Shown here: positions 3,598 through 31,931 of the stretch, piece by piece
How the letters are laid out: each line of letters opens with the position of its first letter
How positions within the stretch are numbered: position 1 is the stretch's first letter
Virus record (IMG/VR): IMGVR_UViG_3300020021_000004
Span: 22,249-86,248 of that record
Length of the DNA stretch: 64,000 bases
Reading direction: 5' to 3' (one strand)
Source: a virus
Notes under the pieces: model-generated
The model's database searches: none
Seen by the model: the letters and a program-made list of their open reading frames with translations, nothing else
What the model was told of the DNA's origin: nothing
Translations under genes and position numbers: made by a program

Positions 3598-3724
3598 CTG
3601 GCAGTCGCCAGCGAATTTCGATTCCGATTTAAATCGAGGTCTTTTTGGATCTGAATCTGGGATCTGGATCTTCATCTTGACCGCAAGGACTCGCCTCCGG
3701 CCTCTATGTCTAGCTCTGGGTCAA
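3598..3724 (-). promoter_or_regulatory. Structured 5' leader of the sheath gene: hairpin, (A/G)AT hexamer array, hairpin
   Basis: Minus strand reads TTGACC...GGTCAA stem, then AGATGA AGATCC AGATCCC AGATTC AGATCC AAAA AGACCT CGATTT AAATCG GAATCG AAATTC, then GCTGGC-GACT-GCCAGC hairpin, then the RBS. The 17-mer at 3661-3677 is identical to 31890-31906. Confidence 0.6.
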
Positions 3725-3745
3725 CGAAGCATTATTGAAGGAGCG

Positions 3746-4162
3746 TTACGCTGGCGGTCGCTTTAGGACGCTCACCAGCTCGTCCCGGACTTTCTTCCGG
3801 CCTTCGATGGTCTGGTCGCTCCCCGCCTTGTACTCGATGTAGTCCGCCCCATTTTTGCGGATTAGAGCCCGGTTTCCCCCCACTTTGCGGACCTCGGTCT
3901 TGACCTTCTCCCGCTCCCGATACTCCTCCCAGCGCTTGTCGGCGCTCGACCCCACCGCGTAATCGTCGGTCGGGTAGTCGTGCTTGGTGACGCCCGAGTT
4001 GGCGGGCGCGGACCCGCCGGCAGCAAAAGCGAACCCGAAGCCCTCAAAGACCCGAGGCGCGCTCCCCTGACAGTTGGGACACTCGTGCGTTTTGTGCTCC
4101 CCCATCTTTAGGGTGCGGGTAAATCCTAAGCCACACGTGCATTCGAAGGTGTACTTGGGCAC
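3746..4162 (-). CDS. FmdB-family zinc-ribbon protein
   Basis: MPKYTFECTCG...ECPNCQG matches the MPxYxYxCxxC...CPxC signature. Confidence 0.75.
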   Translation of the reverse strand: MPKYTFECTCGLGFTRTLKMGEHKTHECPNCQGSAPRVFEGFGFAFAAGGSAPANSGVTKHDYPTDDYAVGSSADKRWEEYREREKVKTEVRKVGGNRALIRKNGADYIEYKAGSDQTIEGRKKVRDELVSVLKRPPA

Positions 4163-4165
4163 GGC

Positions 4166-4402
4166 TTACAGCTCTTGAGGGCCTTGGAACCCTCTAAAAT
4201 TGATAGTGTTGATCAGAGGAGCAGACTCCAGAGACCTCAACTTTTCGTAGTAATCCTCGAGGCTTTGCGGCTCCCCAAGAGACTGCCAGTAGGTGTAGGA
4301 GATGTGGATCGTCTGCGGAGGCGTATTGCCTCCCGTGTATCGAGGGTCCGGCTGCCAACCCTTGGGAGCCAACTTCACCATGGGGATCAAAATGTCGGTC
4401 AT
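4166..4402 (-). CDS. Hypothetical protein (78 aa)
   Basis: ATGA-coupled to the upstream gene and fills the gap in the operon. Confidence 0.55.
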   Translation of the reverse strand: MTDILIPMVKLAPKGWQPDPRYTGGNTPPQTIHISYTYWQSLGEPQSLEDYYEKLRSLESAPLINTINFRGFQGPQEL

Positions 4403-5556
4403 CCGATCCTCTCGTACGAATCGTTACGACCCTCAAGAATAGGGTGGGTCTCGAAGAAGAGGTCGCTAGCGACAGCCTTGATGCCAGGACCGCCGTCAGC
4501 CGTCGTCTGTGACATCTTGGAAATGGTGAGGGGGAGCGGGACGTGAGCCTCCCAATCGGCTCGAAGCTGTACCGACAAGGACGCCTGGTAGAAGAACTCC
4601 TCGCCCGTCTCGTCCGCGATCTCCTCTGCCTCGCCGCCCATCGAGACATCCAGGATCTCGATACCCTCAAACTCCAAGCGCTCTTTCTTGTGAGCCCAGA
4701 GGTACATCATCGTCAGGTCCGCGATCTCCTCCATCTGCACGGTGTCCCGTGAGATGACATCGAGATCGAACGACACTTCGAACTTGCCGCCAAACGCTTT
4801 GGCGGCGTCCACTCGGTCCTGGTACACAACAACCGCTACCTTCTGCTTGTCCTCGGCACGCTTACCGAAAGCCAGCACCACACCAGGAAGCGTCGTCGAG
4901 TCCGGGGTATTCCAATAGAAGGGGATGGGACCCAACGTGGCGCCGGGGTAGCGATAGTCAGCCGAAAGCGTCGAGCCCTTCCCGAAGTTCGTCAGTAGGG
5001 TGATGGCTCCCGTTTCGTAGTCGACCGAGTAGTCGGTGTTTTCCTTCAGGAGGAAGTTGCGGTTCTCGTAAAGCCGAAGCGTTTCCCGGACAGGGATCTG
5101 CTGAAGCTGCGCCTCCCGCTCGACGCCCGTCTGAAACATCAAGACGGGCTCTTCCGTGACGGTCAGCAACGGGTCGACCATGAAGGCCCCCTGCTCGCCC
5201 GGGTCCGTAGGAGCCTTCACGATCTCCACGTAATAGACGCCAGGAGCGGTCGGCATGCCTCCGAACTTCTGCACCGTCTTCAGGTCCTCACGGACCCACT
5301 CGAGCGGATAAGCGGGCTGGCCCACGTAAGCCAACATGACGTGGCTCTGGATGATGCCCACGTAATTGTCGGCCGCCAACGCCACCTTGTTAGCGCTCGA
5401 ACCCTTCACCACAATGCCGAACTGAGGCCGTTCACTGAACGAGAAGCGGTTCTGAATGAAAGGCGTGATCTTGCGATAAACTGGGTGACGCCCGAAGCTA
5501 TCCTTCAGCTCCAAGATCAACCTTCGCTTCAGCGAGTGGACGAGGTAATAATACAC
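4399..5556 (-). CDS. Putative tail completion/terminator-type structural protein
   Basis: GTG start just after the stop of the actin-like gene. Lies between neck genes and sheath. C-terminal FEVSFDLDVISRD...MEEIADL...FFYQASLSVQLRADWE is terminator-like, with an inserted beta-domain (DYSVDYETGAIT). Confidence 0.55.
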   Translation of the reverse strand: MYYYLVHSLKRRLILELKDSFGRHPVYRKITPFIQNRFSFSERPQFGIVVKGSSANKVALAADNYVGIIQSHVMLAYVGQPAYPLEWVREDLKTVQKFGGMPTAPGVYYVEIVKAPTDPGEQGAFMVDPLLTVTEEPVLMFQTGVEREAQLQQIPVRETLRLYENRNFLLKENTDYSVDYETGAITLLTNFGKGSTLSADYRYPGATLGPIPFYWNTPDSTTLPGVVLAFGKRAEDKQKVAVVVYQDRVDAAKAFGGKFEVSFDLDVISRDTVQMEEIADLTMMYLWAHKKERLEFEGIEILDVSMGGEAEEIADETGEEFFYQASLSVQLRADWEAHVPLPLTISKMSQTTADGGPGIKAVASDLFFETHPILEGRNDSYERIG

Positions 5557-5557
5557 C

Positions 5558-6571
5558 TCAGCCGCCTTCGTGTTCTTCAAGGGCTAGCACGAGCATGCCC
5601 TCCGCCACCGCTTGCAAGGGATCCTTGGCTTGACGGACTTCAGTGATCTGGATCGGGAATTTCTTCCGGACTAGTTCGAACTCTTCCCTAAAGATGTCCA
5701 TGAAGCCCTCGGCTTTCGTGGTCCCTCCCGATACGATGAACGGAATGGGTTCCGGGAGTGAAACATCGTTCGACACCTTCTTGAATTGAGCGGCGATGTT
5801 TTGGAGGCTGTAGTTGATGAGCGAGCGAACGTAGAGCACGATCGCCTGTTCCTCACGGCCCGCGGGAGCCAAAAGGTTGATGCCCTTCTCTTTGACGGCA
5901 CACATCTGACTCGCCGTCTTACCGACCGCCTTAGCCGATTGTGCGTCGATCCAGTCACCGCCACGAGCGAGAGCGAACTCCATGCCCTTGCTGGCTTGGT
6001 AGCTCAAAGCGATATTGGCCATACCGGCTCCAAAGCTCACGGCGAGACCCGAAAAGGTCTCGTCAGCGCATTGGCTGTAAATGATAGCCATCGCCTCATT
6101 CATCGGGTGAGCGTTGTAGCCCCGGTCCCGGATGATCTTTCGAAAGACTTCCGTGTGGAAGATGACGTCCTGAGAAGGGTCGTCGATAGGAGGAGCAGGC
6201 ACGCTGTAGAAGCAGTGCTCCCCTTCTTCGGAGGGTTCGTCGAGGACGTTATGGACCAGCAGACCTAGGATGGCTTGAGCATCCATCTCACCAGCAGAGA
6301 TCACGCCTCGGCTGAGGGGACGGCGAGCCTCTCGTTTGAAGAGGTTGGCCATCGTAAGGGCTGAGTCACCGAGGACAACCAAGTTGCCGTCCTGCTCGAT
6401 GTAGTTCACCTTCGACATCTTGAGGGAGCGCTTGGCATCCATCTCCAAGTCGAGGAAGGCGTCTCGGACACGCTTGTAGGCCGTCTTGCCGCTCTTCTTG
6501 CGGGCAGAGACAATGTTCATCGTCCCGATGTCGAGGCCCACCCCCAACTGGTCTTGCTCAGCTTTGCTCAT
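5558..6571 (-). CDS. Actin-like ATPase (MreB/MamK/FtsA superfamily)
   Basis: Phosphate-1 GLDIGTMN, connect-1 NEAMA, phosphate-2 SFGAGM, GGDWID, adenosine motif IVSGGTTKAEG, connect-2 DPLQAVAEG. Confidence 0.85.
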   Translation of the reverse strand: MSKAEQDQLGVGLDIGTMNIVSARKKSGKTAYKRVRDAFLDLEMDAKRSLKMSKVNYIEQDGNLVVLGDSALTMANLFKREARRPLSRGVISAGEMDAQAILGLLVHNVLDEPSEEGEHCFYSVPAPPIDDPSQDVIFHTEVFRKIIRDRGYNAHPMNEAMAIIYSQCADETFSGLAVSFGAGMANIALSYQASKGMEFALARGGDWIDAQSAKAVGKTASQMCAVKEKGINLLAPAGREEQAIVLYVRSLINYSLQNIAAQFKKVSNDVSLPEPIPFIVSGGTTKAEGFMDIFREEFELVRKKFPIQITEVRQAKDPLQAVAEGMLVLALEEHEGG

Positions 6572-6602
6572 TTTGAATTTCCTCTGATCTGTGTTTCTGA
6601 TT

Positions 6603-7259
6603 TCAGCCGCGGTTGTAGCTGTAGATCGCGACTGGTGGAGCTGTGAGGGCCTCAGGAGTCCCCCGCTGCTGAAGCAAGTAGACGAAGCCCTCGTGCTTGT
6701 CCGCTACCCCTTCAAGCAGATTTGAAGTGCCGTGTGTCAACGCATCGGCACTATCGAAAGCCGCTATCACAAGGCCCACGAGCCTTAGAATGGCTAGCTC
6801 ACCCCGAAGGCTCGACGACACCATCTCGTCCGGAGTGCTGGGCTGCCCGCATTGCTGCACGAACGTCAAAGCAAGGGATGCCTGCACGTGCGCCAAGATG
6901 GCCGGCTTACCTAGCCCCACCATACGTTCCGCCACCTGGTCGATGAACTCCAAGGACTCGTTGTACAGCCGCTCGAAGAGCAGGTGGTCGGCATAGAAGG
7001 CTCGACCCTTGGTGCTCCAGTGATGGGTCTGGTGCAAAAGAGCCGCTCCCTGAAGGGCACCCAGGAGAGATGTCATGGACGCCCCTTCAGGAACCGCAGC
7101 CACTTTGGCGCTCTTGACGAACGCCTTGATGTCGGACCGTTGCTTCGAGCTGAGGACCACCGGCTGATAGGGCATTCCCGGCAAATAGGGCGGCCCGTGC
7201 CTGAGGGCGTCGTATTCGGTCGGGGTGTGCCAAAGCACTCGGGAGGTCTCGTCGTCCAT
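6603..7259 (-). CDS. dps: Dps/ferritin-like protein
   Basis: HQTHHWSTKGRAFYADHLLFERLY...IDQVAER matches the Dps ferroxidase motif (HW..G..F...H...E...D..AER). Carries N- and C-terminal extensions. Confidence 0.8.
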   Translation of the reverse strand: MDDETSRVLWHTPTEYDALRHGPPYLPGMPYQPVVLSSKQRSDIKAFVKSAKVAAVPEGASMTSLLGALQGAALLHQTHHWSTKGRAFYADHLLFERLYNESLEFIDQVAERMVGLGKPAILAHVQASLALTFVQQCGQPSTPDEMVSSSLRGELAILRLVGLVIAAFDSADALTHGTSNLLEGVADKHEGFVYLLQQRGTPEALTAPPVAIYSYNRG

Positions 7260-7285
7260 CTGCTAACCTCGATCCATCAAAAGAA

Positions 7286-7840
7286 TCAGCCTGCCGAGCC
7301 CTTTCGGAGCTGGCGGAGCTTGCTCCGGGCGTCTGAAACGCTGTCGCCTTCCGAGAGCACTTCCTGCACACGGATCTGCACATCTCCCGTGGGGGCGACC
7401 GTATCGGGAAGGAACATCGGAATCTCCCCGCCCACCACCTCAGAAACCGGCTGGACCGCCACGGTGGAAACGGCTTGAAGGGTCACCTGCTGAGTCCCCA
7501 TCTTGGTTACCGCAGCCGCCAAGGCGCCCACCTGCTTGGCCATATCGTTCACGCTCTGCTGAAGCGCGGTGCTCTGCTGGGTGGACTTCATCAGGGCTTC
7601 CCGGAGCTGACGATTCTCGTCTTCCAGGACCCCCTTCTGATCTTGAGGTTTGCCGGTATGCATGGTGTTCAACATCTGAAAAATAGCCTTGCTGCCGATA
7701 GCCCTGTGGAGATCTGTTGAGTTCAAAACCTGATCGGCAGGGATGAAGGTCGGGATCTGATGGTGCACCATCACTTGGATGTCAGGGATCAGCAGTGACC
7801 CTGTAGTGGTCTTCGTAACTGTGATGCCGCCGTCACTCAT
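7286..7840 (-). CDS. Hypothetical coiled-coil protein
   Basis: Heptad segment LEDENRQLREALMK...LQQSVNDMAKQV; coupled to its neighbours. Confidence 0.6.
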   Translation of the reverse strand: MSDGGITVTKTTTGSLLIPDIQVMVHHQIPTFIPADQVLNSTDLHRAIGSKAIFQMLNTMHTGKPQDQKGVLEDENRQLREALMKSTQQSTALQQSVNDMAKQVGALAAAVTKMGTQQVTLQAVSTVAVQPVSEVVGGEIPMFLPDTVAPTGDVQIRVQEVLSEGDSVSDARSKLRQLRKGSAG

Positions 7841-8337
7841 CTGGACCCCATCGAAGCCCTAAGCTTCCGTTGAATTTCTTTCGTCAGTCGCTTCTTGATG
7901 ATCTCGCGAGCACTCTTGCGAGCCCTCTCGAGAATCGTCGAAGGCTGACGCCCGGGGTGGTACCAACGTCCCCGAGACATCGACCGTGGAGTAGCGCTCC
8001 GAAAGATCAGCTCGCCGTTGTCGAGGATGATGGGGATCGGACGTTTGGCTTTAGTGAGCCAGACCATTTGCTGCTTCTTCTGACCCTCAATCAAAGGGAA
8101 GAAGGCCGGATGCTTGGCAATGATCCGAACACTGTTGGTGCCGACCTTCGTTCCAATACCTGCCGCCAAGGCTCTCTTGGCTCGAGAAGAGAAGGCCGAC
8201 TTCTGGACCTCGTCCCGGACGGCTTTCAGAATCTCGCGCTGCACACTCTGAAGAACCTTCTTCGTGCTGATCTCACCCCCGCCGTTGGTCGAAACCAACG
8301 GCTTGAGGTTGATGCGAAAGATGGGTGGGACGAACAT
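7837..8337 (-). CDS. Putative neck/tail-completion protein (HK97 gp10-like, basic)
   Basis: ATG 8337 overlaps the upstream TGA. Basic protein with ...IEGQK...WYHPG...ILERA motif, located among neck genes. Confidence 0.55.
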   Translation of the reverse strand: MFVPPIFRINLKPLVSTNGGGEISTKKVLQSVQREILKAVRDEVQKSAFSSRAKRALAAGIGTKVGTNSVRIIAKHPAFFPLIEGQKKQQMVWLTKAKRPIPIILDNGELIFRSATPRSMSRGRWYHPGRQPSTILERARKSAREIIKKRLTKEIQRKLRASMGSR

Positions 8338-9353
8338 CAAGCCCACCGTTCCGTAAGCGGGTGCCACAAACGAAGGAGTCGTCGTTTCTCAGCACGGACG
8401 TCGGAGACCACCCCCAATAAGTGATCTAGGGCCCACCCACTTTTAAGCTCTGTCTCTGAGTATCGTATTACCGAGTACCCGAGAGCATAGTAGGCTTCTG
8501 CTGTAAGGGTGTCGTCCTGAACACGTCGAGCAGCATCTCCGAAGGCAAACCGAGGGCCATGGAAGGCTTCCCCGTCGCACAACACTACAATCTTATGCAG
8601 CCCTAGATCAATCTTGAGGTCGGCCTCACGAGGAACAAGAGTCCCTTGAATGGGTACAGCTTGCCAAACATTCAGAATAGGGTGTAGGCCGTGCTTTGAG
8701 AGGGCCTCAGCAAAGTCTGCCTCAAGCTTACAAGTCCCCCCATACAAGCGTTTGAGCCGAGCCGCCTTTGCTGAAGGAGCCAAACGTGCGTAATTCTTAT
8801 GAGCAACACTTAAGTTGATCCGCCCAACAGAAGACTTCCGCTCTTGACTCCACTTGAAGTAGCCTGCCACCCCCAAGATGTCTTCGGCAATTGTTCGAAA
8901 AACTTTGTAGGTCAGACCTAAGTCTCGCAGGACACCTTGAACAGGAGTCGTAGTTTGAAGCAAACCCCGTACGGCTTCGTAGGTGTTGTCTCCTCGGGAC
9001 CATTTGAACTGAAGGTCGTTCAAACCCACCCATCGAGCTTTGGAAGAAACTCTCACCCTAACATCGGCCGAAATCTCAGGCTTCCATTCCTCATAAGCCT
9101 TCTTACCCAAGAGTAGGTATTGAGACTCACAACGAGGACACCGCTTTGAGTGCTGCTCGGCCTTTGAGCTTACGGCCCAGACACCTCCACACTTTCTGCA
9201 TCGAAGGGTTGCCCTGTACTGTTGTCTCCAAGCCAACCAATCTGCTTTAAGCAGCAGGTGTGAAGAATCCGAATTGTGACGAAGGTGGCCTGCCAACCCA
9301 CGATAATTGTGGATCATTTTAGCACATACCCGACACGGCCCTAAAAATTGCAT
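8337..9353 (-). CDS. Putative free-standing homing endonuclease: Zn fingers plus Vsr/DUF559-like nuclease
   Basis: N-terminal CRVC..H...H, CRKC and CPRC. C-terminal EADLKI...VVLCDGEAFHG...GYSVIRYSE is DUF559/Vsr-type. Visibly more AT-rich than the flanks and inserted between neck genes. Confidence 0.7.
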   Translation of the reverse strand: MQFLGPCRVCAKMIHNYRGLAGHLRHNSDSSHLLLKADWLAWRQQYRATLRCRKCGGVWAVSSKAEQHSKRCPRCESQYLLLGKKAYEEWKPEISADVRVRVSSKARWVGLNDLQFKWSRGDNTYEAVRGLLQTTTPVQGVLRDLGLTYKVFRTIAEDILGVAGYFKWSQERKSSVGRINLSVAHKNYARLAPSAKAARLKRLYGGTCKLEADFAEALSKHGLHPILNVWQAVPIQGTLVPREADLKIDLGLHKIVVLCDGEAFHGPRFAFGDAARRVQDDTLTAEAYYALGYSVIRYSETELKSGWALDHLLGVVSDVRAEKRRLLRLWHPLTERWA

Positions 9354-10743: not shown

Positions 10744-10770
10744 CTTACCAGATGCCTTCCAAGAAGGGGA

Positions 10771-11082
10771 TTAGACGGCCACGGCAGGGGGCGGCACGGG
10801 GGCCGTGTCGTCCGCCGTGCGCGTGATCTTGCCCGTCCGGGCGTCGATCTCGACCTGCACGTTAGGCGCGATACCCCGCTCCACGAGGAATCCCTCGAAG
10901 AGTCGGTTGCGTTGGTCATCGAGCTTCTTCACCCCAGCTAGCAGCTGGATCTTGTCCTGCTCCAACGAAAGCAGGGTGTCGGCGAATCGCTGTCGGGCTT
11001 CCTGTACTCGGCGAAGCTGTTCAAGAGTTTCGGAGTCTACAGGGTCCTCGATTGTCAGAGGACGTTTCTCGGCTTGGCTCAT
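10771..11082 (-). CDS. Small coiled-coil hypothetical protein
   Basis: ATG 11082 (MSQAEKRP) preceded by AAGGAG. Confidence 0.65.
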   Translation of the reverse strand: MSQAEKRPLTIEDPVDSETLEQLRRVQEARQRFADTLLSLEQDKIQLLAGVKKLDDQRNRLFEGFLVERGIAPNVQVEIDARTGKITRTADDTAPVPPPAVAV

Positions 11083-11135
11083 TTGGCTCTCCTTTTCATC
11101 TGCCCTTCCCAAAGGGAGGGGATGAAGAGCCAAAT

Positions 11136-11145
11136 CGATAAAAGG
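11136..11145 (-). promoter_or_regulatory. Candidate late-promoter motif CCTTTTATCG
   Basis: The identical 10-mer also lies in intergenic DNA at 34099-34108 and 53731-53740. Confidence 0.55.
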
Positions 11146-11146
11146 A

Positions 11147-12451: not shown

Positions 12452-15400
12452 TCACTCCCACCCGTGCTTGATGACGCGGGGTGGCTGGAACTTCTCGACA
12501 GGAGCTGCGTCCTGAACCAAAAAGGGCTGCTCCACGAACTGAAGAGGGGAACCGTAGGTCTTTTGGATTTCCCAACGGATGAGCCACTGACCGGGCTGAC
12601 CCTGCTCACCCGCCAAACCCACCACATAGTATTCACCCACGCCAGGGCCCACCACTGCCTTCTTACGACCTCCGACCGGCATCGGGACCCCAGAGGCTGC
12701 GATCTGGAAGAACGTGTAATAGACCGCCACAGGGCTGTACATACCCTGTCGATCCGCGAGCCGGAGACACAGATCCCTTGCCGTGAGAGTTTGAAGGTAC
12801 CGGAAGGTCTTGGAAGGTCCGACGGGGGTCGGCTTGGGCTGAACCCCGTTGTTGTACACACGTACGATGCAGTCGTCGAAGATCTGCACCGCTTCTGCGG
12901 GAAGGCGGGTGTAGTTGACCTGAACGAAGAGGGCGTCCGAAACACCCATCACGTCCGAAACTGTCCGGCTCTGCTCCTTGTCGACTAGGAGTAGATCCGT
13001 CAGATCGAGGCTGTCGATGACCCTGCGGATGTAGTCGGTCGAAGCCTGAAGCTGATCGGCAACAACCAGAGCGTCCGACAGGTCAATGAAGATCGCGAGC
13101 CCGGCCGCTACGTCATCTGTGACGCTGACCGTGTCCTGGACGGTCGCATCCTTCTCGGTAGAGAGAGTGATCGAGTCCGTGACACTGACGGTGTCTTGGC
13201 CTGCACGAATGTAATCGGTCGAAGCTTGGAACTGCTCGGTGACGACCAGAGCGTCCGAGGCCGACCGGACGTAGCTAACGATCTTCGAGAAACTATCGGT
13301 GATGTCGATCGCGTCTTGGACAGCAACCCCGCGTTCAGCAAAGATCTGAACTTCGTCCGTAACATCAACGACGTCTTGTACGGTTCGAACGTAGTCGGTC
13401 GAAGCCCTGAGGGTCTCGGTAATGCTGATCGTGTCCGTAAGATTACGGGCGTACTCAGCCACCAGAACCGCCTGGTCCGTAACACTGATGGCATCCGAAA
13501 CCGTCTTGCGGACTTCAATCGAAATGGCGTCCGTGACCGACACAATGTCGGAAGCCGTGCGGACGTACTGGCTCGAAGAAGAGAGCTGATCCGCTAGAAC
13601 CAGGGCATCCTGGAGCCTGCGGATGTAGTCGGTGTTCGGAGAGAGCTGCTCAACGACCGTGATCGTGTCGGACCCTGAGCGGCTCAGCTCTCGAGTAACC
13701 GCTACACTGTCGGTAACCGAGGCACTATCGGACGCCGCCCGCTCGTAGGTGAAGCTCGTGGCGGCACTGTCGGCAACAGCAACAGCGTCCGAAGCCGTCT
13801 TCGAGTATTGGGTGGACGGAGATAGCTGGTCCGTGATGCTAACAGCGTCAGTGACCAGGACAGAAAGACCCTGGAAAAGGTCGACCGTCAAAGTCTCGGT
13901 GACGCTGATGGTGTCGCTAACGGCACGGGCTATTTCGAACGAAGCACTCGCGGTGTCGGTGATGCTGACCGAATCCGAAAGGGTGCGGTTGTAGACCGAG
14001 CTGATCGATGTCTGGTCAGTGACCGAGACGATGTCCGAAAGGGTGCGGCCGTACTCCGCCGCCAAGGTAAGGGTGTCGGTGACGCTGGTTGCGTCAGCCA
14101 GCGTCTTGTCGACTTCGACAGAGAGGGCGTCCGTAACGCTGATGGCATCGCTGACGGTGCGGACCTTCTCCAGGCCCGCAAACACCGCTTCTGTGGTGCT
14201 GAAGGTGTCCGAAAGGGTGCGAGAGAAATCTCCATTGAGGGACGTCTGGTCAGTGACCGAGACCGTATCGGAGACGTTCTTGTGAACCTCAATAGAGGTT
14301 GCGTCGGTAACGACGATCGTGTCGTTGACGGCACGCGACACCTCGAAAGAGGCATTAGCGGTGTCAGAGGTGCTGACAGCGTCCGAGCCCGTACGGGCGT
14401 ATACCGTCGATAGTGTCGTCTGGTCGGTGACCGAAAGAGTGTCGGAAGCCGACCGGTCCTTGTCCTGGCTCGGGATGTCAGTGTCGGTGACCGAGATCGT
14501 GTCACTGAGGCTCTTGGAGAACTCCAGGGATGTGACACTTTGGTCAGTAACGCTGACGGCGTCGCTGACGGTGCGGACCTTCTCCAAGCCCGCGGAGAGG
14601 GTTTCGGTGACCGCTATGCTGTCGGAGAACGAACGCCCGTACTCTACCGAAAGAGCGGTGCTGTCGGTGACGCTGACGCTGTCATTGACTTCCGTCTCTT
14701 GTTCGGTAGAAGCCTCGTCGGTAACGCTGACCGTATCACTGAGGGTGCGGTTGTACTGTGCCGCCAACAGCAGTTGGTCGGTGACCGAAATGGCGTCCTG
14801 CGGGAACGCTTTCTCGATAAGGGCCTGATCGGTAGCCGAGAGGACATCCGAAAGGGTGCGAGAGAACTCGACGGAGCTAACCGTGGAATCTGTGACGCTG
14901 ATGGCGTCTGACCTGAAGACTTCCTCATCCAGGACCTGGTCGGTGATGCTGACCGTGTCCGAGAGGGTGCGAGAGAAATCTGCCGAACGGCTCGTGCTGT
15001 CGGTGAGCGAGACGACATCGACCCCGAAGATGGTCTCGACCAACAACTGGTCGCTGACCGTGACCGAGTCCGAAAGGGCGATGTCGTTGTTGGCGGTCTC
15101 CGACTCATCAGTGGTGCTGATGGTGTCCGCAGCACTTCTGGAAATTTCAAGCGAAAGAGTCGTGCTGTCGGTGACAGAAACAGCATCGTTGACCGTGACG
15201 GCTTCGAACGCACTGGTCGTCGCGTCCGACTCATCCGTGGTGCTGACGGTGTCCGAAAGAGTGCGGCTGTACTGGGCCGCCAACGTGAGAGTGTCGCTGA
15301 CGCTGACGGCATCCTGTGGGAACGCCTTCTCAGTCAGGGTCTGGTCAGTGGCCGAGATCGCATCACTGAGTGTGCGAGAGAACTCGACGGAACTGAAGGC

Positions 15401-23754: not shown

Positions 23755-23757
23755 CGT

Positions 23758-25824: not shown

Positions 25825-25873
25825 AGGTCCCGATCCGCGTAGGCTCCTCTACCTCTGAGGTGTCAAAAGAAAC

Positions 25874-26701: not shown

Positions 26702-26816
26702 GTGCCCCTCCGCTTCGCTGACAAAGTACGGCTACTGCCGGAACAGCTGGAGCGTGTCTTAGGTCCAATGAAACCTCACTTCTGAGAGATCAAAAGGACT
26801 TTAGAAAAGACGTGGC

Positions 26817-27827
26817 TTAGCTAGCGTTCTGTAGCCGCCGACGGGCCTCTAGGTGCACTTCCATGAAGGAGACGCCGAATCGGTCACGGAGCCACTCGAT
26901 CATGACCGCCTCTTCGACCGAATGCTGACCGTTGTGACACTTCACACACAACCTTTCCAGGTTGGCGGGGTTGTTGTTCCAAGGGTTGCGATCCTTGTGG
27001 TTGATGTGCTTCCCGACCTCCCTGCACACCACACACGGACCTGGGGCTACGAGACGGCGGGCACGACCGTACATAACCTGTGACGTAACGGCATCACCTG
27101 TAACCCTCGGGCGTCCTCGGCCATCCGTGAAACCCTTGCCCACCAGGTCTGGAGATAACTCGACCCGCTTGATCCCAAGTCGATCTAAAGCCTGTTGAAC
27201 AGTTCTCGCAGCACACCCCGCCATTCGACCAACTTCAGCCTTAGACTTCCATTGGGTCACGTACTGCTCGGTCAACCACTCCTTGTTATGAAGGGTCTCT
27301 AGGAACTTAGCCCTAGGACGAGGAGCGTTGGACCCGTACTTGCGAAGTACACTGTGAGCCCGTGTGGCACTTTCACTACGTTTCGCAGGGTCGGATTCGT
27401 AGGTAGCGTGACCCGTGTGTGTCTCTACGGCTCGCTGTTTTTGAAGACAACCGCACGACTTAGCGCCACCCGTCTTTAGCGCTTGAGCGCTAATCGCCTT
27501 CTCATTGCCGCAATCGCAATGGCACCACCACCAAGCGGACCTCGTGGTCTGTTCCGTCAGCTCCCGAGTTAAGGGTGCTTCGGACCGTCGTAACACTTCC
27601 AAGCGACCAAACCGTTGGCCCGTGAGATCCTCTGCTTGACCTATCAAGCAGCCACAGGACTTCGTATGGCCAGACCTAAGCAAGGACCCTCGAACGATGT
27701 GCTCGGGCTTACCGCACGCTGAACAAAAGCAAACCCACCGAGCCTCTCCGCCCGGTGGGTACGCCGCTTCTCGAATCACCGTCAACGAACCGAATACCTG
27801 CCCAGTTAGGTCGATTTTCCTGCTCAT
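26817..27827 (-). CDS. HNH homing endonuclease with two DLTGQxFGxL / WxCxCxCG / SCGC repeats
   Basis: C-terminal CVVC...HINHKDRNPWNNNPANLERLCVKCHNGQH; inserted inside the fibre locus. Confidence 0.8.
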   Translation of the reverse strand: MSRKIDLTGQVFGSLTVIREAAYPPGGEARWVCFCSACGKPEHIVRGSLLRSGHTKSCGCLIGQAEDLTGQRFGRLEVLRRSEAPLTRELTEQTTRSAWWWCHCDCGNEKAISAQALKTGGAKSCGCLQKQRAVETHTGHATYESDPAKRSESATRAHSVLRKYGSNAPRPRAKFLETLHNKEWLTEQYVTQWKSKAEVGRMAGCAARTVQQALDRLGIKRVELSPDLVGKGFTDGRGRPRVTGDAVTSQVMYGRARRLVAPGPCVVCREVGKHINHKDRNPWNNNPANLERLCVKCHNGQHSVEEAVMIEWLRDRFGVSFMEVHLEARRRLQNAS

Positions 27828-27833
27828 TTCCAG

Positions 27834-27862
27834 AGCATATCGAATTCTAACTCGACTGTCAA
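27834..27862 (-). promoter_or_regulatory. Sigma70-type promoter giving a probably leaderless HNH transcript
   Basis: TTGACA (27862-27857), 17-nt spacer, TATGCT (27839-27834), 6 nt, ATG 27827. No Shine-Dalgarno. Confidence 0.75.
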
Positions 27863-27875
27863 CAGTCCGATAACT

Positions 27876-28382
27876 TCAGGTTACGCGAGCCCTGTAGGTT
27901 ATTCGTAGCTTGTCTGCCGTGGTCTTGTTGACGGCCGTGAAAGTGCTGCGGCTCAACGCACTGCCACCCGGCGACGTGTGCTGGTTCATGACCACCACTT
28001 CGCGGATGTTGGTAGCCGACTTGGTGCCGCCGCCCGACTGATACGACACCACCCACTGGAAGGTACGAGTACCCGACAGAAGGGTGATGGTGTCAGCAGT
28101 GCGGAGCGTGCCCGTCACGGGGCTGACCACGTTGGTCTGTGCAGAGTTCGCCGCAACACCGGACGTACCGATGCGGAGGAACTTGAACAGACTCGTGTTC
28201 AGACCAGTGGCTTTGCGCCAGATCTGCTTCTTGCCGGTGTTGACCACCAGGTTGGGGATTGTACGACGTTGCACAACCTCAGGACCGTTCTTCCCGTCTC
28301 GGAGCACCTCGACGACGAAAACGCCCTGGGCTTGCAGCTCGTCAGACAGCCCCTGCTCGTTCTGAATGTCCTTGGCCTGCAT
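27876..28382 (-). CDS. Small tail-collar-fibre-like beta-sandwich subunit (168 aa)
   Basis: ATG 28382 with GGAG RBS. NLVVNTG...IGT...IREV...SRSTFTAVNKT...LRITY resembles the collar-fibre N-terminal fold as a stand-alone protein. Confidence 0.6.
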   Translation of the reverse strand: MQAKDIQNEQGLSDELQAQGVFVVEVLRDGKNGPEVVQRRTIPNLVVNTGKKQIWRKATGLNTSLFKFLRIGTSGVAANSAQTNVVSPVTGTLRTADTITLLSGTRTFQWVVSYQSGGGTKSATNIREVVVMNQHTSPGGSALSRSTFTAVNKTTADKLRITYRARVT

Positions 28383-30198
28383 TGCTAATTGACTCCTCCA
28401 ACAGTGAGATGTTGGTTTTGGCTTCCTCAAACACGTCGGATTCGGCGTTGTCTGGAAGCAGCTCCAGCACCTTACGCGCCCAATAAAGAGAATCTTCGAA
28501 CCGACCCAACTCTCCGTGAACCATGGCCAGCCGTTGTGCTGGGATCCATGAGTACATGGGGAGGTCCACCCACCACAGGGTGAAGGGCGGCTCTCCAACT
28601 TTAGTCCCCGCATAAGTATACCATTGGAGGGCCTCTTCGAACTTGTCCTCCCGGAACGCCAAGTCCCCTAGCCGAACCCAATGTTCAGTCCGGCTCCAAT
28701 CGTCCCCGACCGCCCCTAAAAGGATGTCTCGAGCGCTGATCCAATCAGCCGCTTTCTGCTCTTCCGTTCGAGGTGGGGTAGTGGGATCCGAAGCCCTTTG
28801 GCTGTACAGCTTCGAGAGGATGAGGCGCGTGTGGTACCGCATGGGCCCGTTCTTCTTTGGGACCCTCAGGTACTCTTCCAACCGTTCGATCGCCTTATCG
28901 TTCGAGTGTTCACGCCATTCTGAGCCCAAATAGTGGAGCGACATGGCGTTGCCGTTGTGGACCCAGTCGTCCATCAACGTCACACGGTTCTGAGTCTTTC
29001 TCTGAACGTGACGAGCCATTTCACGGTCGATAGCTCGCTCGTGAAGGGTGCGGACCTGCGGCAGGTTGATGGCGTAGGTGCCGGTCGGGTAGTCCAGAAT
29101 GTTGTGCGTCTGACGGGCGTACCGGATGCGCGAGTCTTGTTTGCACAGCCAAGGGAAAGCCCACTGCTGATCGTTGCCCGTACGGAGGACGAATCCAAGC
29201 TTCGTCTGCGGGGGCATCTGGTCCAGCGAAAGCAGGGCTTCCCACCCTGAAACCAACCGCTCATGGCCCTCCGTCATGAAGATCCACTCTGAAGTGCACT
29301 TGTCCATGCACTGGTTGCGGATCCACCCGAAATGAACTCCACCCTCAGGGGTTTCGTCACCCTTGGGGCCTTCAGGGTCCTTCAAAAAGAACACCACTTC
29401 AGCGTACTTTTCGGCAATTTCCCAGGTGTTGTCGGTCGTCCGAGGATCGACACCAATGACGATTTCATCCGCCACCGCTCGGAAACTTGCAAGGGTGGCC
29501 TCGAGGTCCGCCCCCTCATCACGACAAGGCATCGTCACCGACAGGGTGAAGCCTTTTTCCCAACCGCAAACCCCCAAAAGGTACGGTCCAAGCACTTCGA
29601 TCCGTACGTGTTCGAAGTGCTGTTGCAAGTCCCTCTTGAAGGACATGGCGTTGTACTTCACCGTGTGCTGGGGCTCTTCATCAGGTCCCAAGCGATCGTT
29701 GGGTACCGAGAACAAGGCTCGCCCACGCTTGGCAGCGTGCTTGAACAACCGATGGCGGGTCTCCGCACTCAGGTGCTCGACCACCTCAGTGGCGATGCAA
29801 ACATCCAAGGGACGATCGAGAACTCGATCGAGGTCCGCATCGCTCTCCAAATCGGCGATGGCGGTCTCGAGTCCTAGTTCTCGCGCCTTCTCGAGAGCGG
29901 CCTCGCTGTGGTCCACCACAAGAGGCTCGACCTTCTTGGTGACCTTCAGACGCTCAGCCAAGATACCGGTGCCACCCCCAAGATCGACGATCTTGGACCC
30001 CGGGGTGAGAATGCGCTCGATGCGAGTGTAGACCTGGCTCAGAGCCTGCTTTCGCCACTCCTCTTGCCCCTCTTCCTTCCAGAGGCGATTCCAAAGGTCG
30101 GGGCTATTGGCAAGACGTGCTTGCCGCTCAGCTGCCTCTTCTTCTTTGGTCTTGGTCTTAGCTTCGTCGACTAGTTCCACAGCCTGAGTAGCTTCCAT
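28342..30198 (-). CDS. Class I SAM methyltransferase / GT2 glycosyltransferase / TPR fusion
   Basis: IVDLGGGTG...TEVVEHL (MTase); LSVTMPCRDE...ADEIVIGVD..TTDNTWEIA...FGWIRN (GT-A); C-terminal TPR-like helices. Confidence 0.8.
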   Translation of the reverse strand: MEATQAVELVDEAKTKTKEEEAAERQARLANSPDLWNRLWKEEGQEEWRKQALSQVYTRIERILTPGSKIVDLGGGTGILAERLKVTKKVEPLVVDHSEAALEKARELGLETAIADLESDADLDRVLDRPLDVCIATEVVEHLSAETRHRLFKHAAKRGRALFSVPNDRLGPDEEPQHTVKYNAMSFKRDLQQHFEHVRIEVLGPYLLGVCGWEKGFTLSVTMPCRDEGADLEATLASFRAVADEIVIGVDPRTTDNTWEIAEKYAEVVFFLKDPEGPKGDETPEGGVHFGWIRNQCMDKCTSEWIFMTEGHERLVSGWEALLSLDQMPPQTKLGFVLRTGNDQQWAFPWLCKQDSRIRYARQTHNILDYPTGTYAINLPQVRTLHERAIDREMARHVQRKTQNRVTLMDDWVHNGNAMSLHYLGSEWREHSNDKAIERLEEYLRVPKKNGPMRYHTRLILSKLYSQRASDPTTPPRTEEQKAADWISARDILLGAVGDDWSRTEHWVRLGDLAFREDKFEEALQWYTYAGTKVGEPPFTLWWVDLPMYSWIPAQRLAMVHGELGRFEDSLYWARKVLELLPDNAESDVFEEAKTNISLLEESISNAGQGHSERAGAV

Positions 30199-30226
30199 TC
30201 ATTTCCTCTGATTTCTGGGTTTTCAT

Positions 30227-30775
30227 TTAGCCTCCCTGTTTACGGGGAGGATTGGGATCCACAACAAAGTGTTCGGTCTGTACTGGGGCCGTCTTGGGCA
30301 GCACCTGTGCACGAGCGGGCATGCCCGCAGGAATGACAGCGACCTGCTTCTTCAACAACACCGCCCGTAGGTCCGCCGACCCATCCAGGGTAGCCATCAA
30401 GATCGAGTCGGTGCCCTTCCACGTGTGGATCGTGTCAGCCGTCCCCACGAGGTCCGAGAGTGCTTTGGCATACGACGTCTGAAGACTCACCTGATCAGCC
30501 GCCGCCATGCTGTCACCGAGCGTCGCCCAGCGTACGAAACCCGTAGAGGCTACGTCACTCGCGGCTACCGCATCCGAAACCGCGATCCCAAAGCCCTTCG
30601 AGATCAAGATGCTGTCGCTGATGTTGACGGTGTCGGTGTTGAAGGATGTCTCCACGAACATGGAGTCCCCCATCACGATGAGGTCTTGGAGGCTGTATTG
30701 GTACGACATCGCCAAGGCAATGGCATCCGCAGAGACCGAGAAGGAGTCGTTGACGACCGTGTCCAATAGAGCCAT
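30227..30775 (-). CDS. Short paralogue of the repeat backbone protein
   Basis: FVETSFNTDTVNISDS, VSDAVAASD and YAKALSDLVGTAD match the repeat units of the giant protein. Confidence 0.7.
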   Translation of the reverse strand: MALLDTVVNDSFSVSADAIALAMSYQYSLQDLIVMGDSMFVETSFNTDTVNISDSILISKGFGIAVSDAVAASDVASTGFVRWATLGDSMAAADQVSLQTSYAKALSDLVGTADTIHTWKGTDSILMATLDGSADLRAVLLKKQVAVIPAGMPARAQVLPKTAPVQTEHFVVDPNPPRKQGG

Positions 30776-30787
30776 AGCGCGCCTCCT

Positions 30788-31174
30788 TTAGGTGCAGAAA
30801 CCCGCCGTCAAGCCAGACTCGACAGCAAGGGGAAGGTTCACGACATCGAAGTCGATCCCGACGATTTGAGACGTCCCAGGATAGTTGATCAGCAGGTTCC
30901 AATGCCCAAGAGAGTTGGGAAAGAACCGAAGGCCATAGCCCTGATTGGGCAGCGCATCCCAGTAGACGGAGCCCGACACCACTTGGGCATCTGACACCAC
31001 CGAGCCGTCGAGAAGGGGCCACGCCACGACGGTGTTGTTCAGGAACAACGTCAACGTCACGTCAGCGGGCACCACTCCAGCAATTCGGGTGTACTGGTTG
31101 GCCGAAAAGAGGTCCACCTGATCGTAGATCAGCTGGTTGATCTGCACTAAGCGCGTTCGAAAAGTGGCCGCCAT
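30788..31174 (-). CDS. Small Ig-like structural protein
   Basis: GYGLRFFPNSLGHWNLLI is an Ig/YtkA-like strand pattern; located in the fibre locus. Confidence 0.55.
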   Translation of the reverse strand: MAATFRTRLVQINQLIYDQVDLFSANQYTRIAGVVPADVTLTLFLNNTVVAWPLLDGSVVSDAQVVSGSVYWDALPNQGYGLRFFPNSLGHWNLLINYPGTSQIVGIDFDVVNLPLAVESGLTAGFCT

Positions 31175-31179
31175 GAGGC

Positions 31180-31566
31180 TCAGCTTTCCGTGATCGAGAA
31201 GTACCCGATTGGGAAAAAGAGGGCGTCCTCCGCATACACGGTCTTCGGCGTCCCCAAGGTACCGAAGTACAGCATGTTGCCTGCCGTCAAGGCGTCGAAC
31301 ACCGCTACTCCAGGGACGTCACCCCAATCCAGCGTCGGGGTTGGGTAAGTGATGACGTTGGTGTTGTGGCTCTCGCCCGCCGAAGACGCAGAGAACACTG
31401 CTGCTCGGCGTATGTAGGACCCACCCGTCACTTCAGTGCCGCCGCCGGCACTCGTGGGCGTCACGTTGAATAACGCGACGTACCAGGCGGACGGAGGCGT
31501 GAACGTCACACCCCGAAGGACGTGGTTCGCCAAAGCGTTTCGCAGGTAGTCGGTTTTGTTCATCAT
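31180..31566 (-). CDS. Small phage fibre subunit (YVALF..P...G.EV.G..Y.R family)
   Basis: YVALFNVTPTSAGGGTEVTGGSYIR...WG.V..VAVFDALTAGNMLYFG is a recurrent phage minor tail/fibre family motif. Confidence 0.65.
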   Translation of the reverse strand: MMNKTDYLRNALANHVLRGVTFTPPSAWYVALFNVTPTSAGGGTEVTGGSYIRRAAVFSASSAGESHNTNVITYPTPTLDWGDVPGVAVFDALTAGNMLYFGTLGTPKTVYAEDALFFPIGYFSITES

Positions 31567-31579
31567 GACGAAGAAGCCC

Positions 31580-31825
31580 TCATGCCATATGGCAGATCGA
31601 TTTGAGAGCCTTCACCGCGTTAGCGTACTGAAGACCCGACACTTTGCCCGTCTGTGCAAACCAAGCGTTTTTGAGTTCTTCGATGTTCGAAATCGTCGGG
31701 TCGAAAACGAAGCTGACCCGTCCCGTCCCGCTCTTTTCCGTCCGGGTCATCGCTACTCCCGCTACCTGAAGATAGGCCGCGAAATAGAGGTCGGACGTTC
31801 GAAATTCTGTATCTTTGCTCAACAT
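31580..31825 (-). CDS. DUF5659-like small protein, candidate nucleic-acid-binding regulator
   Basis: FRTSDLYFAAYLQVAG...RVSFVFD matches my recollection of the DUF5659 signature. ATG 31825. Confidence 0.6.
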   Translation of the reverse strand: MLSKDTEFRTSDLYFAAYLQVAGVAMTRTEKSGTGRVSFVFDPTISNIEELKNAWFAQTGKVSGLQYANAVKALKSICHMA

Positions 31826-31841
31826 TTTGTATCCCAATCTC

Positions 31842-31931
31842 GCCCCTTCCGAAGAAGGGCCGTAAAATTCGAATCTGATTTGGGGTCTCGATCTGGATCT
31901 TCATCTGGAGGACCCCGGCTAGGGGGCCCTC
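31842..31931 (-). promoter_or_regulatory. Structured 5' leader: hairpin, hexamer array, UUCG hairpin
   Basis: GAGGGCCCC-CTAGCC-GGGGTCCTC stem; AGATGA AGATCC AGATCG AGACCCC AAATC AGATTC GAATTT; CCCTTC-TTCG-GAAGGG. Confidence 0.65.

What the first reader, a model, noticed from the sequence alone, without database searches (positions are those of the whole stretch)
3598..31931. Shared hairpin / hexamer-array / hairpin leader: candidate post-transcriptional regulon with a DUF5659-like regulator
Seen: the sheath leader (3598-3724) and the DUF5659-like gene leader (31842-31931) share an exact 17-mer, AGATGAAGATCCAGATC (3661-3677 = 31890-31906). They also share architecture: a 5' stem, then an A-rich array of about 7-11 (A/G)A(T/C) units with a 6-7 nt period, then a 3' hairpin (one with a cUUCGg loop) before the start. 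The stems differ in sequence but keep their position. A 6-7 nt period does not match the DNA helix and recalls RNA wrapped round an oligomeric ring, as in TRAP. Inference: the small DUF5659-like protein binds these arrays, autoregulates, and controls translation of abundant late proteins.
Basis: partly seen in the sequence, partly recalled or inferred. Interest (0 to 1): 0.8.

Follow-up and report, generated by a model that had tools for sequence, protein, structure and literature searches.

The report
Phased AGAU-repeat leaders in a megaphage
A few late genes of this giant soil phage and its many uncultured relatives are preceded by a hairpin, a run of AGAU-like units spaced six bases apart, and a second hairpin; this looks like an undescribed control element in the messenger RNA, but nothing shows that the neighbouring small DUF5659 protein is what binds it.

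Summary
The 17-mer is exact at 3661-3677 and 31890-31906 on the coding (-) strand. Each copy opens a run of 5-6 units (consensus YCC-AGAU-C/G) spaced about 6 nt, between hairpins, one with a cUUCGg loop. These are the only two such arrays in the 86-kb contig.

The element is conserved. At least 3 phased units occur in 42 of 68 distinct leaders at the same gene junction and in 15 of 20 sheath-like gene leaders. AGAT outnumbers ATCT 198 to 14. Relatives are 370-450-kb phages.

Units run into the Shine-Dalgarno sequence and start codon, and hairpin 2 keeps a sense-strand G·U pair. I therefore favour an mRNA operator or enhancer over a promoter, but this is unproven.

The DUF5659-regulator idea is weak. 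The array stays at the junction when another gene is inserted. DUF5659 genes of other clades lack arrays. One lineage does hint at covariation.

"Sheath" is only weakly supported.

This scan noted the same element before on other DNA (e1-5841746). My literature searches found no description.

The parts
3723..3735 (-). Conserved motif ATAATGCTTCGTT, 47 nt upstream of the array in the sheath-like gene leader. It is a candidate -10-like promoter element or other signal; its function is unknown.
   Evidence: after the arrays were left out, this was the best shared motif. It scored 14.8 or more in 11 of 20 sheath-like leaders, and lay 26-106 nt upstream of the array. In the own contig there are 4 coding-strand hits and 0 on the other strand.
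3679..3702 (-). Hairpin 1 of leader 1. The array starts 2 nt after it.
   Evidence: MFE and centroid.
3647..3677 (-). Array 1: five AGAU units spaced 6, 6, 7, 6. It starts with the shared 17-mer.
3618..3637 (-). Weak A/U-rich hairpin carrying AAAU/GAAU units.
   Evidence: centroid.
3597..3612 (-). Hairpin 2 of leader 1 (6-bp GC stem, loop GACU).
3587..3592 (-). Shine-Dalgarno sequence AAGGAG of the sheath-like gene.
2..3580 (-). Sheath-like gene. It is 1421 aa in full and runs beyond the window start.
   Evidence: weak DUF2460 and a sub-threshold Phage_sheath_1C match at residues 1330-1417; the N-terminus with YVPPGVYT is conserved in 20 relatives.
31951..33072 (-). 373-aa conserved virion-module gene just upstream of leader 2. 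I used it as the anchor. Its function is unknown and it is not the HK97-type capsid gene.
   Evidence: no family or PDB match; only weak leads to sheath/DUF3383-type proteins; 207 homologues.
31908..31931 (-). Hairpin 1 of leader 2 (9 bp, including one G·U).
31873..31906 (-). Array 2: six units spaced 6, 6, 6, 7, 5. It starts with the shared 17-mer.
31841..31862 (-). Hairpin 2 of leader 2, with a c(UUCG)g tetraloop. It is flanked by the conserved UUACG and CGAGAU.
31580..31825 (-). DUF5659 gene (81 aa).
   Evidence: PF18903, E = 1.1e-7, above the cut-off; 29 homologues with 16 invariant columns.
45759..45775 (-). Short three-unit tract (AAAU, AGAU, AAAU) after a small hairpin. It lies upstream of the 202-aa gene that precedes the HK97-type capsid gene.
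   Evidence: The homologous tract is present in relative G001; 2 of 2 leaders of this gene class have 3 units.
6572..6602 (-). A-rich leader of the volactin-type actin gene, with degenerate AAAU/AGAU units running into the Shine-Dalgarno sequence.
   Evidence: Relatives carry 3-7 units at this position.

Best explanation
The arrays are cis-acting elements of the mRNA leaders of a few late genes of a roughly 400-kb phage. The genes are the sheath-like gene, whichever gene follows the 373-aa virion gene (usually DUF5659), the gene before the capsid gene, and in relatives the volactin and FmdB zinc-ribbon genes.

A stable hairpin is followed by a single-stranded run of 3-10 YCC-AGAU-(C/G) units at a 6-nt period. 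This run often continues as AGAUGAGGAU-N-AGAUG through the ribosome-binding site.

I infer that a sequence-specific RNA-binding factor with repeated identical sites reads the phased units and sets translation initiation, and perhaps mRNA stability, of these genes. Such a factor could be a ring or a cooperatively polymerising small protein, and its identity is unknown.

Shown here: the anatomy, the phasing, the strand bias, the conservation and the restriction to certain genes. Inferred: transcription of the array, protein binding, and the direction of the effect.
For: Phasing:
- In 68 distinct junction leaders the spacing of units peaks at 6 nt (99 cases), with 41 at 5 and 30 at 7, and harmonics at 12 and 18-19. 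Shuffles give about 2.5 per distance.

Sense-strand bias:
- AGAT 198 against ATCT 14. AGAT is 14-fold enriched over the neighbouring coding sequence.
- 23 arrays lie on the coding strand and 3 on the other, in 881 kb of 47 loci. Near-duplicate loci were not removed from this count.

Restriction to certain genes, as leaders with 3 or more units:
- sheath-like 15 of 20
- DUF5659 50 of 97
- Gp80-like 4 of 12
- volactin 3 of 10
- FmdB 3 of 13
- the 373-aa gene itself 0 of 60
- for comparison, all predicted gene upstreams 41 of 994, and gene interiors 4 of 686

Rarity:
- There are 2 arrays of 4 or more units in the 86-kb contig.
- There are 2 in a 452-kb relative, and none on the other strand.

RNA-level clues:
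- Units overlap the Shine-Dalgarno sequence and the AUG, and fill 20-45-nt intercistronic gaps.
- Hairpin 2 varies in sequence but is kept. 3 of 6 pairs show changes on both sides, and one G·U pair is fixed in 9 of 17 sequences.
- UUCG loops number 8 against 0 CGAA on the sense strand.
- Neither leader has a sigma-70-like promoter or an intrinsic terminator.
- The conserved ATAAT-type motif 26-106 nt upstream would place the sheath array inside a 5' UTR.

Precedents, from passages I read:
- TRAP targets contain 9-11 NAG triplets with spacers (PMC1474065).
- The T4 gene 32 operator is a folded nucleation element followed by more than 40 nt of unstructured RNA with UUAAA/UAAA repeats that includes the RBS (PMC535899).
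Against: - There are no transcript data. No RNA run was listed, so transcription of the arrays is not shown.
- The G·U fraction of all predicted stems is the same on both strands (9.6% against 9.9%), and 30 of 62 leaders fold better in sense than in antisense.
- Arrays are no more single-stranded than composition-matched shuffles (0.60 against 0.59; 16 of 25; p = 0.30).
- No binder was found. TRAP, S1, Hfq, CsrA, S21 and CSD are each absent from 5 of 5 related genomes.
- Some relatives (L005, L009-L012, L057) have both hairpins but no array between them, so the distal array is dispensable.
- My unit definition was made after seeing the arrays.
Confidence: 0.45

Rival explanations
1. The arrays are a protein-independent translational enhancer or ribosome standby pad. 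In this reading an A/C-rich, G-poor, weakly structured stretch between clamping hairpins lets 30S subunits load near the start site of highly expressed genes, and the AGAUG-like units mimic start contexts.
For: - The arrays precede presumably abundant virion proteins.
- Units resemble the start-site context AGAUGAGGAU..AGAUG.
- Arrays are predicted to be more open than the rest of the leader (0.60 against 0.46).
- Copy number is variable and the arrays are dispensable in some lineages.
Against: - A generic enhancer needs neither a specific tetranucleotide nor a strict 6-nt phase.
- Openness is no greater than in shuffles.
- The 373-aa gene (0 of 60) and the HK97-type capsid gene lack arrays and use plain Shine-Dalgarno sites.
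- The general start context of 998 genes shows no AGAU preference.
Confidence: 0.2
2. The arrays act at the DNA level, as tandem binding sites for a late transcription activator or repressor, or as part of a phage-specific late promoter. Hairpin 1 would then end the upstream transcript and hairpin 2 would form the 5' end of the new one. From memory, small ribbon-helix-helix proteins such as omega of pSM19035 bind contiguous 7-bp repeats.
For: - There are only a few arrays per genome, as expected for a few late promoters.
- The arrays follow a hairpin at gene-cluster boundaries.
- A conserved UUACG lies just before hairpin 2, which could mark a transcription start.
- Strand bias alone does not exclude oriented DNA repeats.
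Against: - Units overlap the Shine-Dalgarno sequence and the start codon. In L016, L018, L031, L032 and in the volactin leaders they fill gaps too short for a promoter plus a leader.
- The distance from the array to the ATG varies from 0 to about 130 nt.
- Relatives with the two hairpins but no array still carry the downstream gene.
- No sigma-70-like promoter was found.
- A separate ATAAT-type motif lies upstream of the sheath array.
Confidence: 0.17
3. The module is an mRNA processing and stability element. An endonuclease of the RNase E type would cut in the single-stranded AGAU run. The upstream message would then end in a protective 3' hairpin and the downstream message would begin with a protective 5' hairpin, which would set the ratio of neighbouring gene products.
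For: - The layout is hairpin, single strand, hairpin, placed directly after a stop codon.
- The minimal form is hairpin-UUUAC-hairpin (L009-L012).
- UUCG-capped stable hairpins are present.
- From memory, R-N-cut-A-U resembles published RNase E preferences.
Against: - Cleavage sites need no 6-nt phasing.
- Arrays without hairpins occur next to start codons.
- The host and its RNases are unknown.
Confidence: 0.1
4. One reading: the DUF5659 protein is the factor that binds the arrays, autoregulates, and controls the other array-bearing genes. This is a sub-case of the best explanation.
For: - The gene lies directly after the array in most relatives.
- It is single-copy in 5 of 5 related genomes.
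- The protein is small, mildly basic (pI 8.7-9.4, net charge +2 to +4) and 12% aromatic.
- It is more conserved than the 373-aa neighbour in 28 of 28 aligned relatives.
- In the one lineage whose two leaders use CGAUCC/AAUAUC units, DUF5659 is only 47% identical, although the 373-aa protein is 58% and the sheath N-terminus 78% identical.
Against: - The array stays at the junction when another gene is inserted. DUF5659 then has no array (L025) or only a weak tract (L015).
- Of 8 DUF5659 loci of other clades, only 1 reaches 3 units, and that one has no AGAT.
- There are no significant PDB matches by sequence or by profile.
- The position beside head-fibre genes fits a structural role equally well.
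- The covariation rests on one lineage.
- No structure prediction was possible.
Confidence: 0.12

Closest known systems
TRAP (trp RNA-binding attenuation protein) binding sites of Bacillus
   Same: Both have short triplet-containing units (here C-AG-AU-C contains an NAG) repeated in phase in a 5' leader and separated by a few non-conserved bases. Both can overlap the ribosome-binding site. PMC1474065, passages read: natural targets hold 9-11 NAG repeats with spacers.
   Different: - Here N is mostly C, which is TRAP's least favoured base.
- The conserved core is four bases, AGAU.
- There are 3-10 units.
- Hairpins flank the run.
- No TrpBP (PF02081) gene is present in 0 of 5 related phage genomes.
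- There is no link to tryptophan genes.
Translational operator of phage T4 gene 32 mRNA
   Same: Both have a folded element at the 5' side followed by an unstructured stretch with several copies of a short motif that includes the ribosome-binding site. In T4 this is read by cooperative binding of a phage protein. PMC535899, passages read.
   Different: - T4 uses a pseudoknot and UUAAA/UAAA units without strict phase, on a single autoregulated gene that encodes an ssDNA-binding protein.
- Here simple hairpins flank strictly phased AGAU units, on several genes.
- The binder here is unknown.
Tandem DNA repeat operators of small ribbon-helix-helix proteins (omega of pSM19035, ParR/parC). This comparison is recalled from memory; no paper was read.
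   Same: Both are arrays of short direct repeats whose period does not match the DNA helical repeat, placed upstream of genes. In the known cases they are bound by small proteins.
   Different: - The known arrays lie in promoter DNA, and their units can be inverted.
- Here the units share one orientation, run into the Shine-Dalgarno sequence and start codon, and sit between RNA-type hairpins.

Membership tests
TRAP-type RNA operator | 9-11 (G/U)AG triplets separated by 2-3 nt spacers | tested here: not met
   Units contain NAG followed by 3 nt, but N is mostly C. Chains are 3-7 units by my criterion. The window has 5 and 6.
TRAP-type RNA operator | A TrpBP/MtrB (PF02081) ring protein is available | tested here: not met
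   0 of 5 related phage genomes match, while the Bacillus subtilis control is found. The host genome is unknown.
T4 gene 32-type autogenous operator | A folded nucleation element 5' of an unstructured stretch of repeated motifs that includes the RBS | tested here: met
   The layout is hairpin 1, then the array, and in many relatives units run through the Shine-Dalgarno sequence and AUG. The folded element is a hairpin, not a pseudoknot.
T4 gene 32-type autogenous operator | The regulated gene encodes the binding protein | not testable with these tools
   It needs binding assays. The positional evidence is mixed.
Sigma-70 promoter / intrinsic terminator | -35 and -10 hexamers; or a GC hairpin followed by a T run | tested here: not met
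   0 promoter-like and 0 terminator-like sites in 3500-3850 and 31750-32050.
Any Rfam family | A covariance-model match at the gathering score | tested here: not met
   0 matches in the whole window on both strands.
DUF5659 (PF18903) | A Pfam HMM score above the gathering cut-off | tested here: met
   32.1 bits against 23.6, E = 1.1e-7, profile positions 2-71 of 75. The Atlas neighbours are DUF5659 clusters.
Contractile-tail sheath | Sheath domains (Phage_sheath_1 / Phage_sheath_1C) above the cut-off | tested here: inconclusive
   Only Phage_sheath_1C was found, at 15 bits (cut-off 26.9, E = 0.025), covering profile positions 11-103 of 104 at the extreme C-terminus. There is no PDB sequence match. 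That the N-terminal PPGVYT motif is sheath-like is recalled from memory.

The most novel reading that the evidence does not exclude
DUF5659 founds a new family of about 80-residue phage RNA-binding regulators. In this reading the protein assembles on 6-nt-phased CAGAU(C/G) repeats nucleated by a hairpin. It autoregulates and sets the timing or stoichiometry of the sheath, head-fibre and cytoskeletal proteins in 400-kb phages. This would be a TRAP-like solution evolved independently in viruses.
Probability: 0.12. Interest if true: 0.8.

Novelty: new variant of a known kind. Interest (0 to 1): 0.62.

Why it matters
Almost nothing is known about how uncultured 400-kb phages control gene expression. 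This work yields a short, easily recognised cis-element with a clear phase, a defined set of target genes and dozens of natural variants. A handful of oligonucleotides and reporter constructs could therefore test post-transcriptional control in megaphages directly. It could also lead to a new RNA-binding protein family. If the element works without other phage factors, it is a compact translational control part. The result also gives a functional lead, still weak, for the uncharacterised Pfam family DUF5659.

Tried and rejected
- **A leader peptide.** Both 17-mers open with ATG AAG ATC CAG ATC (MKIQI). There is no Shine-Dalgarno sequence, the downstream frames differ, and in relatives the first AUG is in varying frames or absent. 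Rejected.
- **Dam/GATC clustering.** GATC is common throughout (648 sites), and relatives use AAAUCC/AGACCC units without GATC. Rejected as the defining feature.
- **Within-genome concerted evolution of the two leaders.** For 9 genomes the longest common substring averages 8.8 within a genome and 8.3 between genomes. The window's 17 is the outlier, and the between-genome maximum is 13. There is no general trend.
- **Strand assignment by G·U counts or by sense against antisense folding energy.** No difference.
- **Selection for single-strandedness.** Not significant.
- **Known RNA-binding families in 5 related genomes.** TRAP, S1, Hfq, CsrA, S21 and CSD were all absent.
- **Close relatives among GenBank phages.** None were found for the 373-aa protein or for DUF5659. 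The first viral scan with a single protein found none. The genome-contig scan gave one 1.8-kb MAG contig.
- **RNA evidence.** No RNA holder was listed.
- **Literature.** 'DUF5659' gave 0 papers. Searches on megaphage UTR motifs, on huge-phage Shine-Dalgarno, intergenic repeats and late genes, and on AGAU/AGAT repeats found nothing describing such arrays (listings only). From Al-Shayeb 2020 (PMC7162821) I read passages only. Its Supplementary Table 8 on ribosome-binding motifs could bear on this clade, but supplements were closed and I did not see it.
- **A mislabel of my own.** I first called the 373-aa gene 'capsid'. Pfam places the HK97-type capsid at 44187-45065, so the 373-aa gene is only an anchor of unknown role.
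They did not reach 4 units by my criterion.

Full report
**Setting.** Every long ORF of the window lies on the - strand. The window is the last 64 kb of a single 86,248-bp virus record. Homologues of its genes lie on IMG/VR contigs of 300-450 kb. Several of these have direct terminal repeats and a CheckV completeness of 94-100%. The window's own 373-aa protein is also on record on a 404-kb contig. This is therefore a fragment of an uncultured megaphage. The sequencing runs that hold it are soil metagenomes. GenBank phages hold no relative of the two proteins I tried.

**The observation.**
- The 17-mer AGATGAAGATCCAGATC occurs exactly twice, at 3661-3677 and 31890-31906, both on the coding strand. 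0 of 100 shuffles reached the observed number of matches.
- On the coding strand, leader 1 reads: hairpin (3679-3702), five AGAU units spaced 6, 6, 7, 6 (3647-3677), a weak A/U hairpin, a GC hairpin (3597-3612), AAGGAG, ATG.
- Leader 2 reads: hairpin (31908-31931), six units spaced 6, 6, 6, 7, 5 (31873-31906), a hairpin with a c(UUCG)g loop (31841-31862), ATG.
- I defined an array as 4 or more of AGAT/AAAT/AGAC/GGAT spaced 5-8 nt. I chose this after seeing the arrays. By it, these are the only two arrays in the 86-kb contig. There are none on the other strand, and Markov shuffles give 0.1.

**Gene identities.**
- The small gene (31580-31825) is a true DUF5659 member, at 32.1 bits against a cut-off of 23.6.
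- The 'sheath' is a 1421-aa protein whose only sheath signal is a sub-threshold Phage_sheath_1C match over the whole domain at its extreme C-terminus (E = 0.025). It also has a weak DUF2460 hit, and its N-terminus is conserved in 20 relatives. 'Sheath-like' is fair; 'sheath' is not shown.
- The 373-aa gene upstream of leader 2, which I first took for the capsid gene, has no family or PDB match and only weak Atlas leads.
- The HK97-type capsid gene is 44187-45065, with Phage_capsid at 24.4 bits against a cut-off of 24.2.

**Conservation at the junction after the 373-aa gene.**
- Using an alignment of 40 homologues, I fetched 46 viral loci and 80 metagenome loci.
- Of the 128 sequences then held (the fetched loci plus the window's own contig), 95 carried a DUF5659 gene, and they gave 71 non-identical junction sequences.
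- Most repeat the same plan: stop codon, GC-rich hairpin, a run that typically begins (C/U)AGAUG(A/U)A, a second hairpin, then (C/U)AGAUGAGGAU...AGAUG at the start site.
- In the 68 junctions of 50-200 nt, AGAT occurs 198 times against 14 for ATCT, and is 14-fold enriched over the adjacent coding sequence.
- The distance between successive units peaks at 6 nt (99 cases), with 41 at 5 and 30 at 7, and harmonics at 12 and 18-19. Shuffles give about 2.5 per distance.
- 42 of the 68 junctions carry a chain of 3 or more units.
- The unit consensus is Y-C-C-A-G-A-U-(C/G)-(C/A).

**Conservation at the sheath-like gene.** I fetched 20 further loci. Unsupervised motif search on 21 leaders returned the array itself as the best shared motif, 75-173 nt upstream of the ATG. 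15 of 20 distinct leaders have 3 or more units and 8 have 4 or more.

**Which genes carry the arrays.** The element is gene-specific, not a general start context.
- Leaders with 3 or more units: DUF5659 50 of 97, Gp80-like head fibre 4 of 12, volactin-type actin 3 of 10, FmdB zinc ribbon 3 of 13, the gene before the capsid gene 2 of 2, and the 373-aa gene 0 of 60.
- Over all predicted genes of the first 47 loci plus the contig, the figure is 41 of 994 upstream regions and 4 of 686 interior controls.
- A position table of 998 starts shows an ordinary purine-rich Shine-Dalgarno region and no AGAU.
- A complete 452-kb relative has only 2 arrays of 4 or more units, at the sheath-like leader and at one start site, and none on the other strand. 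At 3 units the signal sinks into noise, with 26 against 19.

**RNA or DNA?**

For RNA:
- The units run through the Shine-Dalgarno sequence into the start codon. In several relatives they make up the whole 20-45-nt gap between two genes, which leaves no room for a promoter plus a leader.
- In the 17 nearest relatives hairpin 2 differs in sequence and length but keeps its place between the conserved UUACG and CGAGAU. 3 of 6 consensus pairs change on both sides, and one pair is G·U in 9 of 17 sequences.
- Among distinct predicted hairpins, UUCG loops occur 8 times on the sense strand and their complement never does.
- Neither leader holds a sigma-70-like promoter or a canonical terminator.
- Upstream of the sheath array lies a second conserved motif, ATAA(T/A)NNNTT(C/G)(G/T)TT. 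It scores well in 11 of 20 leaders and lies 26-106 nt before the array. If it is a -10-like element, the array is in the 5' UTR.

Against, or neutral:
- There are no transcript data.
- Overall G·U content and folding energy do not differ between strands.
- Arrays are not more open than shuffles.
- All genes point one way, so orientation alone cannot separate an RNA element from oriented DNA repeats.

I put the RNA-level readings together at about three in four.

**Mechanism.** A conserved four-base core at a fixed 6-nt phase, in 3-10 copies next to a hairpin, is what a protein with repeated identical sites would read.
- The two closest precedents are TRAP targets (9-11 NAG triplets with spacers, PMC1474065) and the T4 gene 32 operator (a folded nucleation element followed by unstructured UUAAA/UAAA repeats that include the RBS, PMC535899).
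- Membership in either fails on specifics, namely unit identity and number, and no TrpBP gene in 0 of 5 relatives.
- No S1, Hfq, CsrA, S21 or CSD gene is present in those five genomes either. A phage-encoded binder would therefore belong to an unrecognised family.
- A protein-free enhancer, a DNA operator and an RNase-processing module remain as rivals. Their evidence is listed in the rival explanations.

**DUF5659 as the binder.**

For:
- It sits just downstream of the array in most relatives.
- It is single-copy in 5 of 5 genomes.
- It is mildly basic and rich in aromatic residues.
- It is more conserved than its 373-aa neighbour in 28 of 28 aligned relatives.
- In one lineage (records of L132/L241 and L130/L242) both leaders use CGAUCC/AAUAUC units. 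There DUF5659 is only 47% identical, although the 373-aa protein is 58% and the sheath N-terminus 78% identical.

Against:
- In L015 and L025 a zinc-ribbon gene is inserted after the 373-aa gene and inherits the module, while DUF5659 follows without it. The module therefore belongs to the junction, not to the DUF5659 gene.
- DUF5659 genes of other phage clades lack arrays: 1 of 8 reaches 3 units, and that one has no AGAT.
- There is no informative PDB match.
- Its place among head-fibre genes fits a structural role.

I give this about 0.12.

**The exact 17-mer.** Across nine genomes for which I hold both leaders, same-genome leaders are no more alike than leaders of different genomes (mean longest common substring 8.8 against 8.3). 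The window's 17 stands above the between-genome maximum of 13. Most of the identity follows from both arrays starting with the same preferred opening, hairpin then AGAUGAAGAYCCAGAUC. That opening is also seen in relatives.

**Novelty.** Rfam has no match. 'DUF5659' appears in no paper of the library, and three other searches found no description of such arrays. An earlier follow-up of this scan on another genome (e1-5841746) reported the same AGAT-repeat leaders before the same gene classes and also named the T4 gene 32 operator as closest. My results were obtained separately, from this window, and they agree. I class the element as a new variant of a known kind (a phased-repeat leader operator), and its mechanism is open.

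Noticed in passing
window 44187-45065 (-) and 45108-45716 (-): The HK97-type major capsid gene is 44187-45065 (Phage_capsid, 24.4 bits against a cut-off of 24.2). The 202-aa gene before it has no family match but carries a short three-unit AGAU-type leader that is conserved in relative G001.
   Followed up: partly
window 5558-6571 (-): An actin-like gene of the Volactin family (PF25216, E = 1e-75) sits among tail and neck genes. In relatives its leader carries 3-7 AGAU-type units running into the start codon.
   Followed up: partly
window 31580-31825 and loci L002-L044: DUF5659 is always single-copy. It is more conserved than the neighbouring 373-aa protein: 53-74% against 33-65% identity over the same 28 relatives. 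It has 16 invariant columns, including several aromatic residues.
   Followed up: partly
loci L015:9310-9885 and L025:11212-11424: A small zinc-ribbon-like gene (starting MRPPK) is inserted between the 373-aa gene and DUF5659. It takes over the hairpin/array/hairpin leader.
   Followed up: yes
many junction leaders, e.g. L017, L018, L020, L032: The start-site motif AGAUGAGGAU-NN-AGAUG puts an upstream AUG in frame with the real start, which would give M-R-x-x-M. In one subclade the first array units read AUGUAG or AUGUAA, forming start-stop mini-ORFs.
   Followed up: no
window 3723-3735 (-) and the sheath-like leaders of L128-L145 and L035: The conserved motif ATAATGCTTCGTT lies just after the upstream stop codon. 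It is specific to this leader, with only 4 coding-strand hits in the 86-kb contig. It may be a -10-like element.
   Followed up: partly
window 42097-44145 (-): One ORF combines a LAGLIDADG_2 endonuclease domain, an HTH and an N6_N4 methyltransferase domain.
   Followed up: no
window 28342-30198 (-): A 618-aa protein combines a class-I methyltransferase, a family-2 glycosyltransferase and TPR repeats, and sits inside the virion module.
   Followed up: no
contig 13670-13765 (window -8578 to -8483; locus L149): This leader has a long-range stem that encloses an AGAUGAAAAU tract and a GC hairpin. It is followed by CAGAUGCAGAUG...GGAGAUG at the start of a 398-aa gene. It is a weaker relative of the arrays and falls below my 4-unit criterion.
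   Followed up: partly
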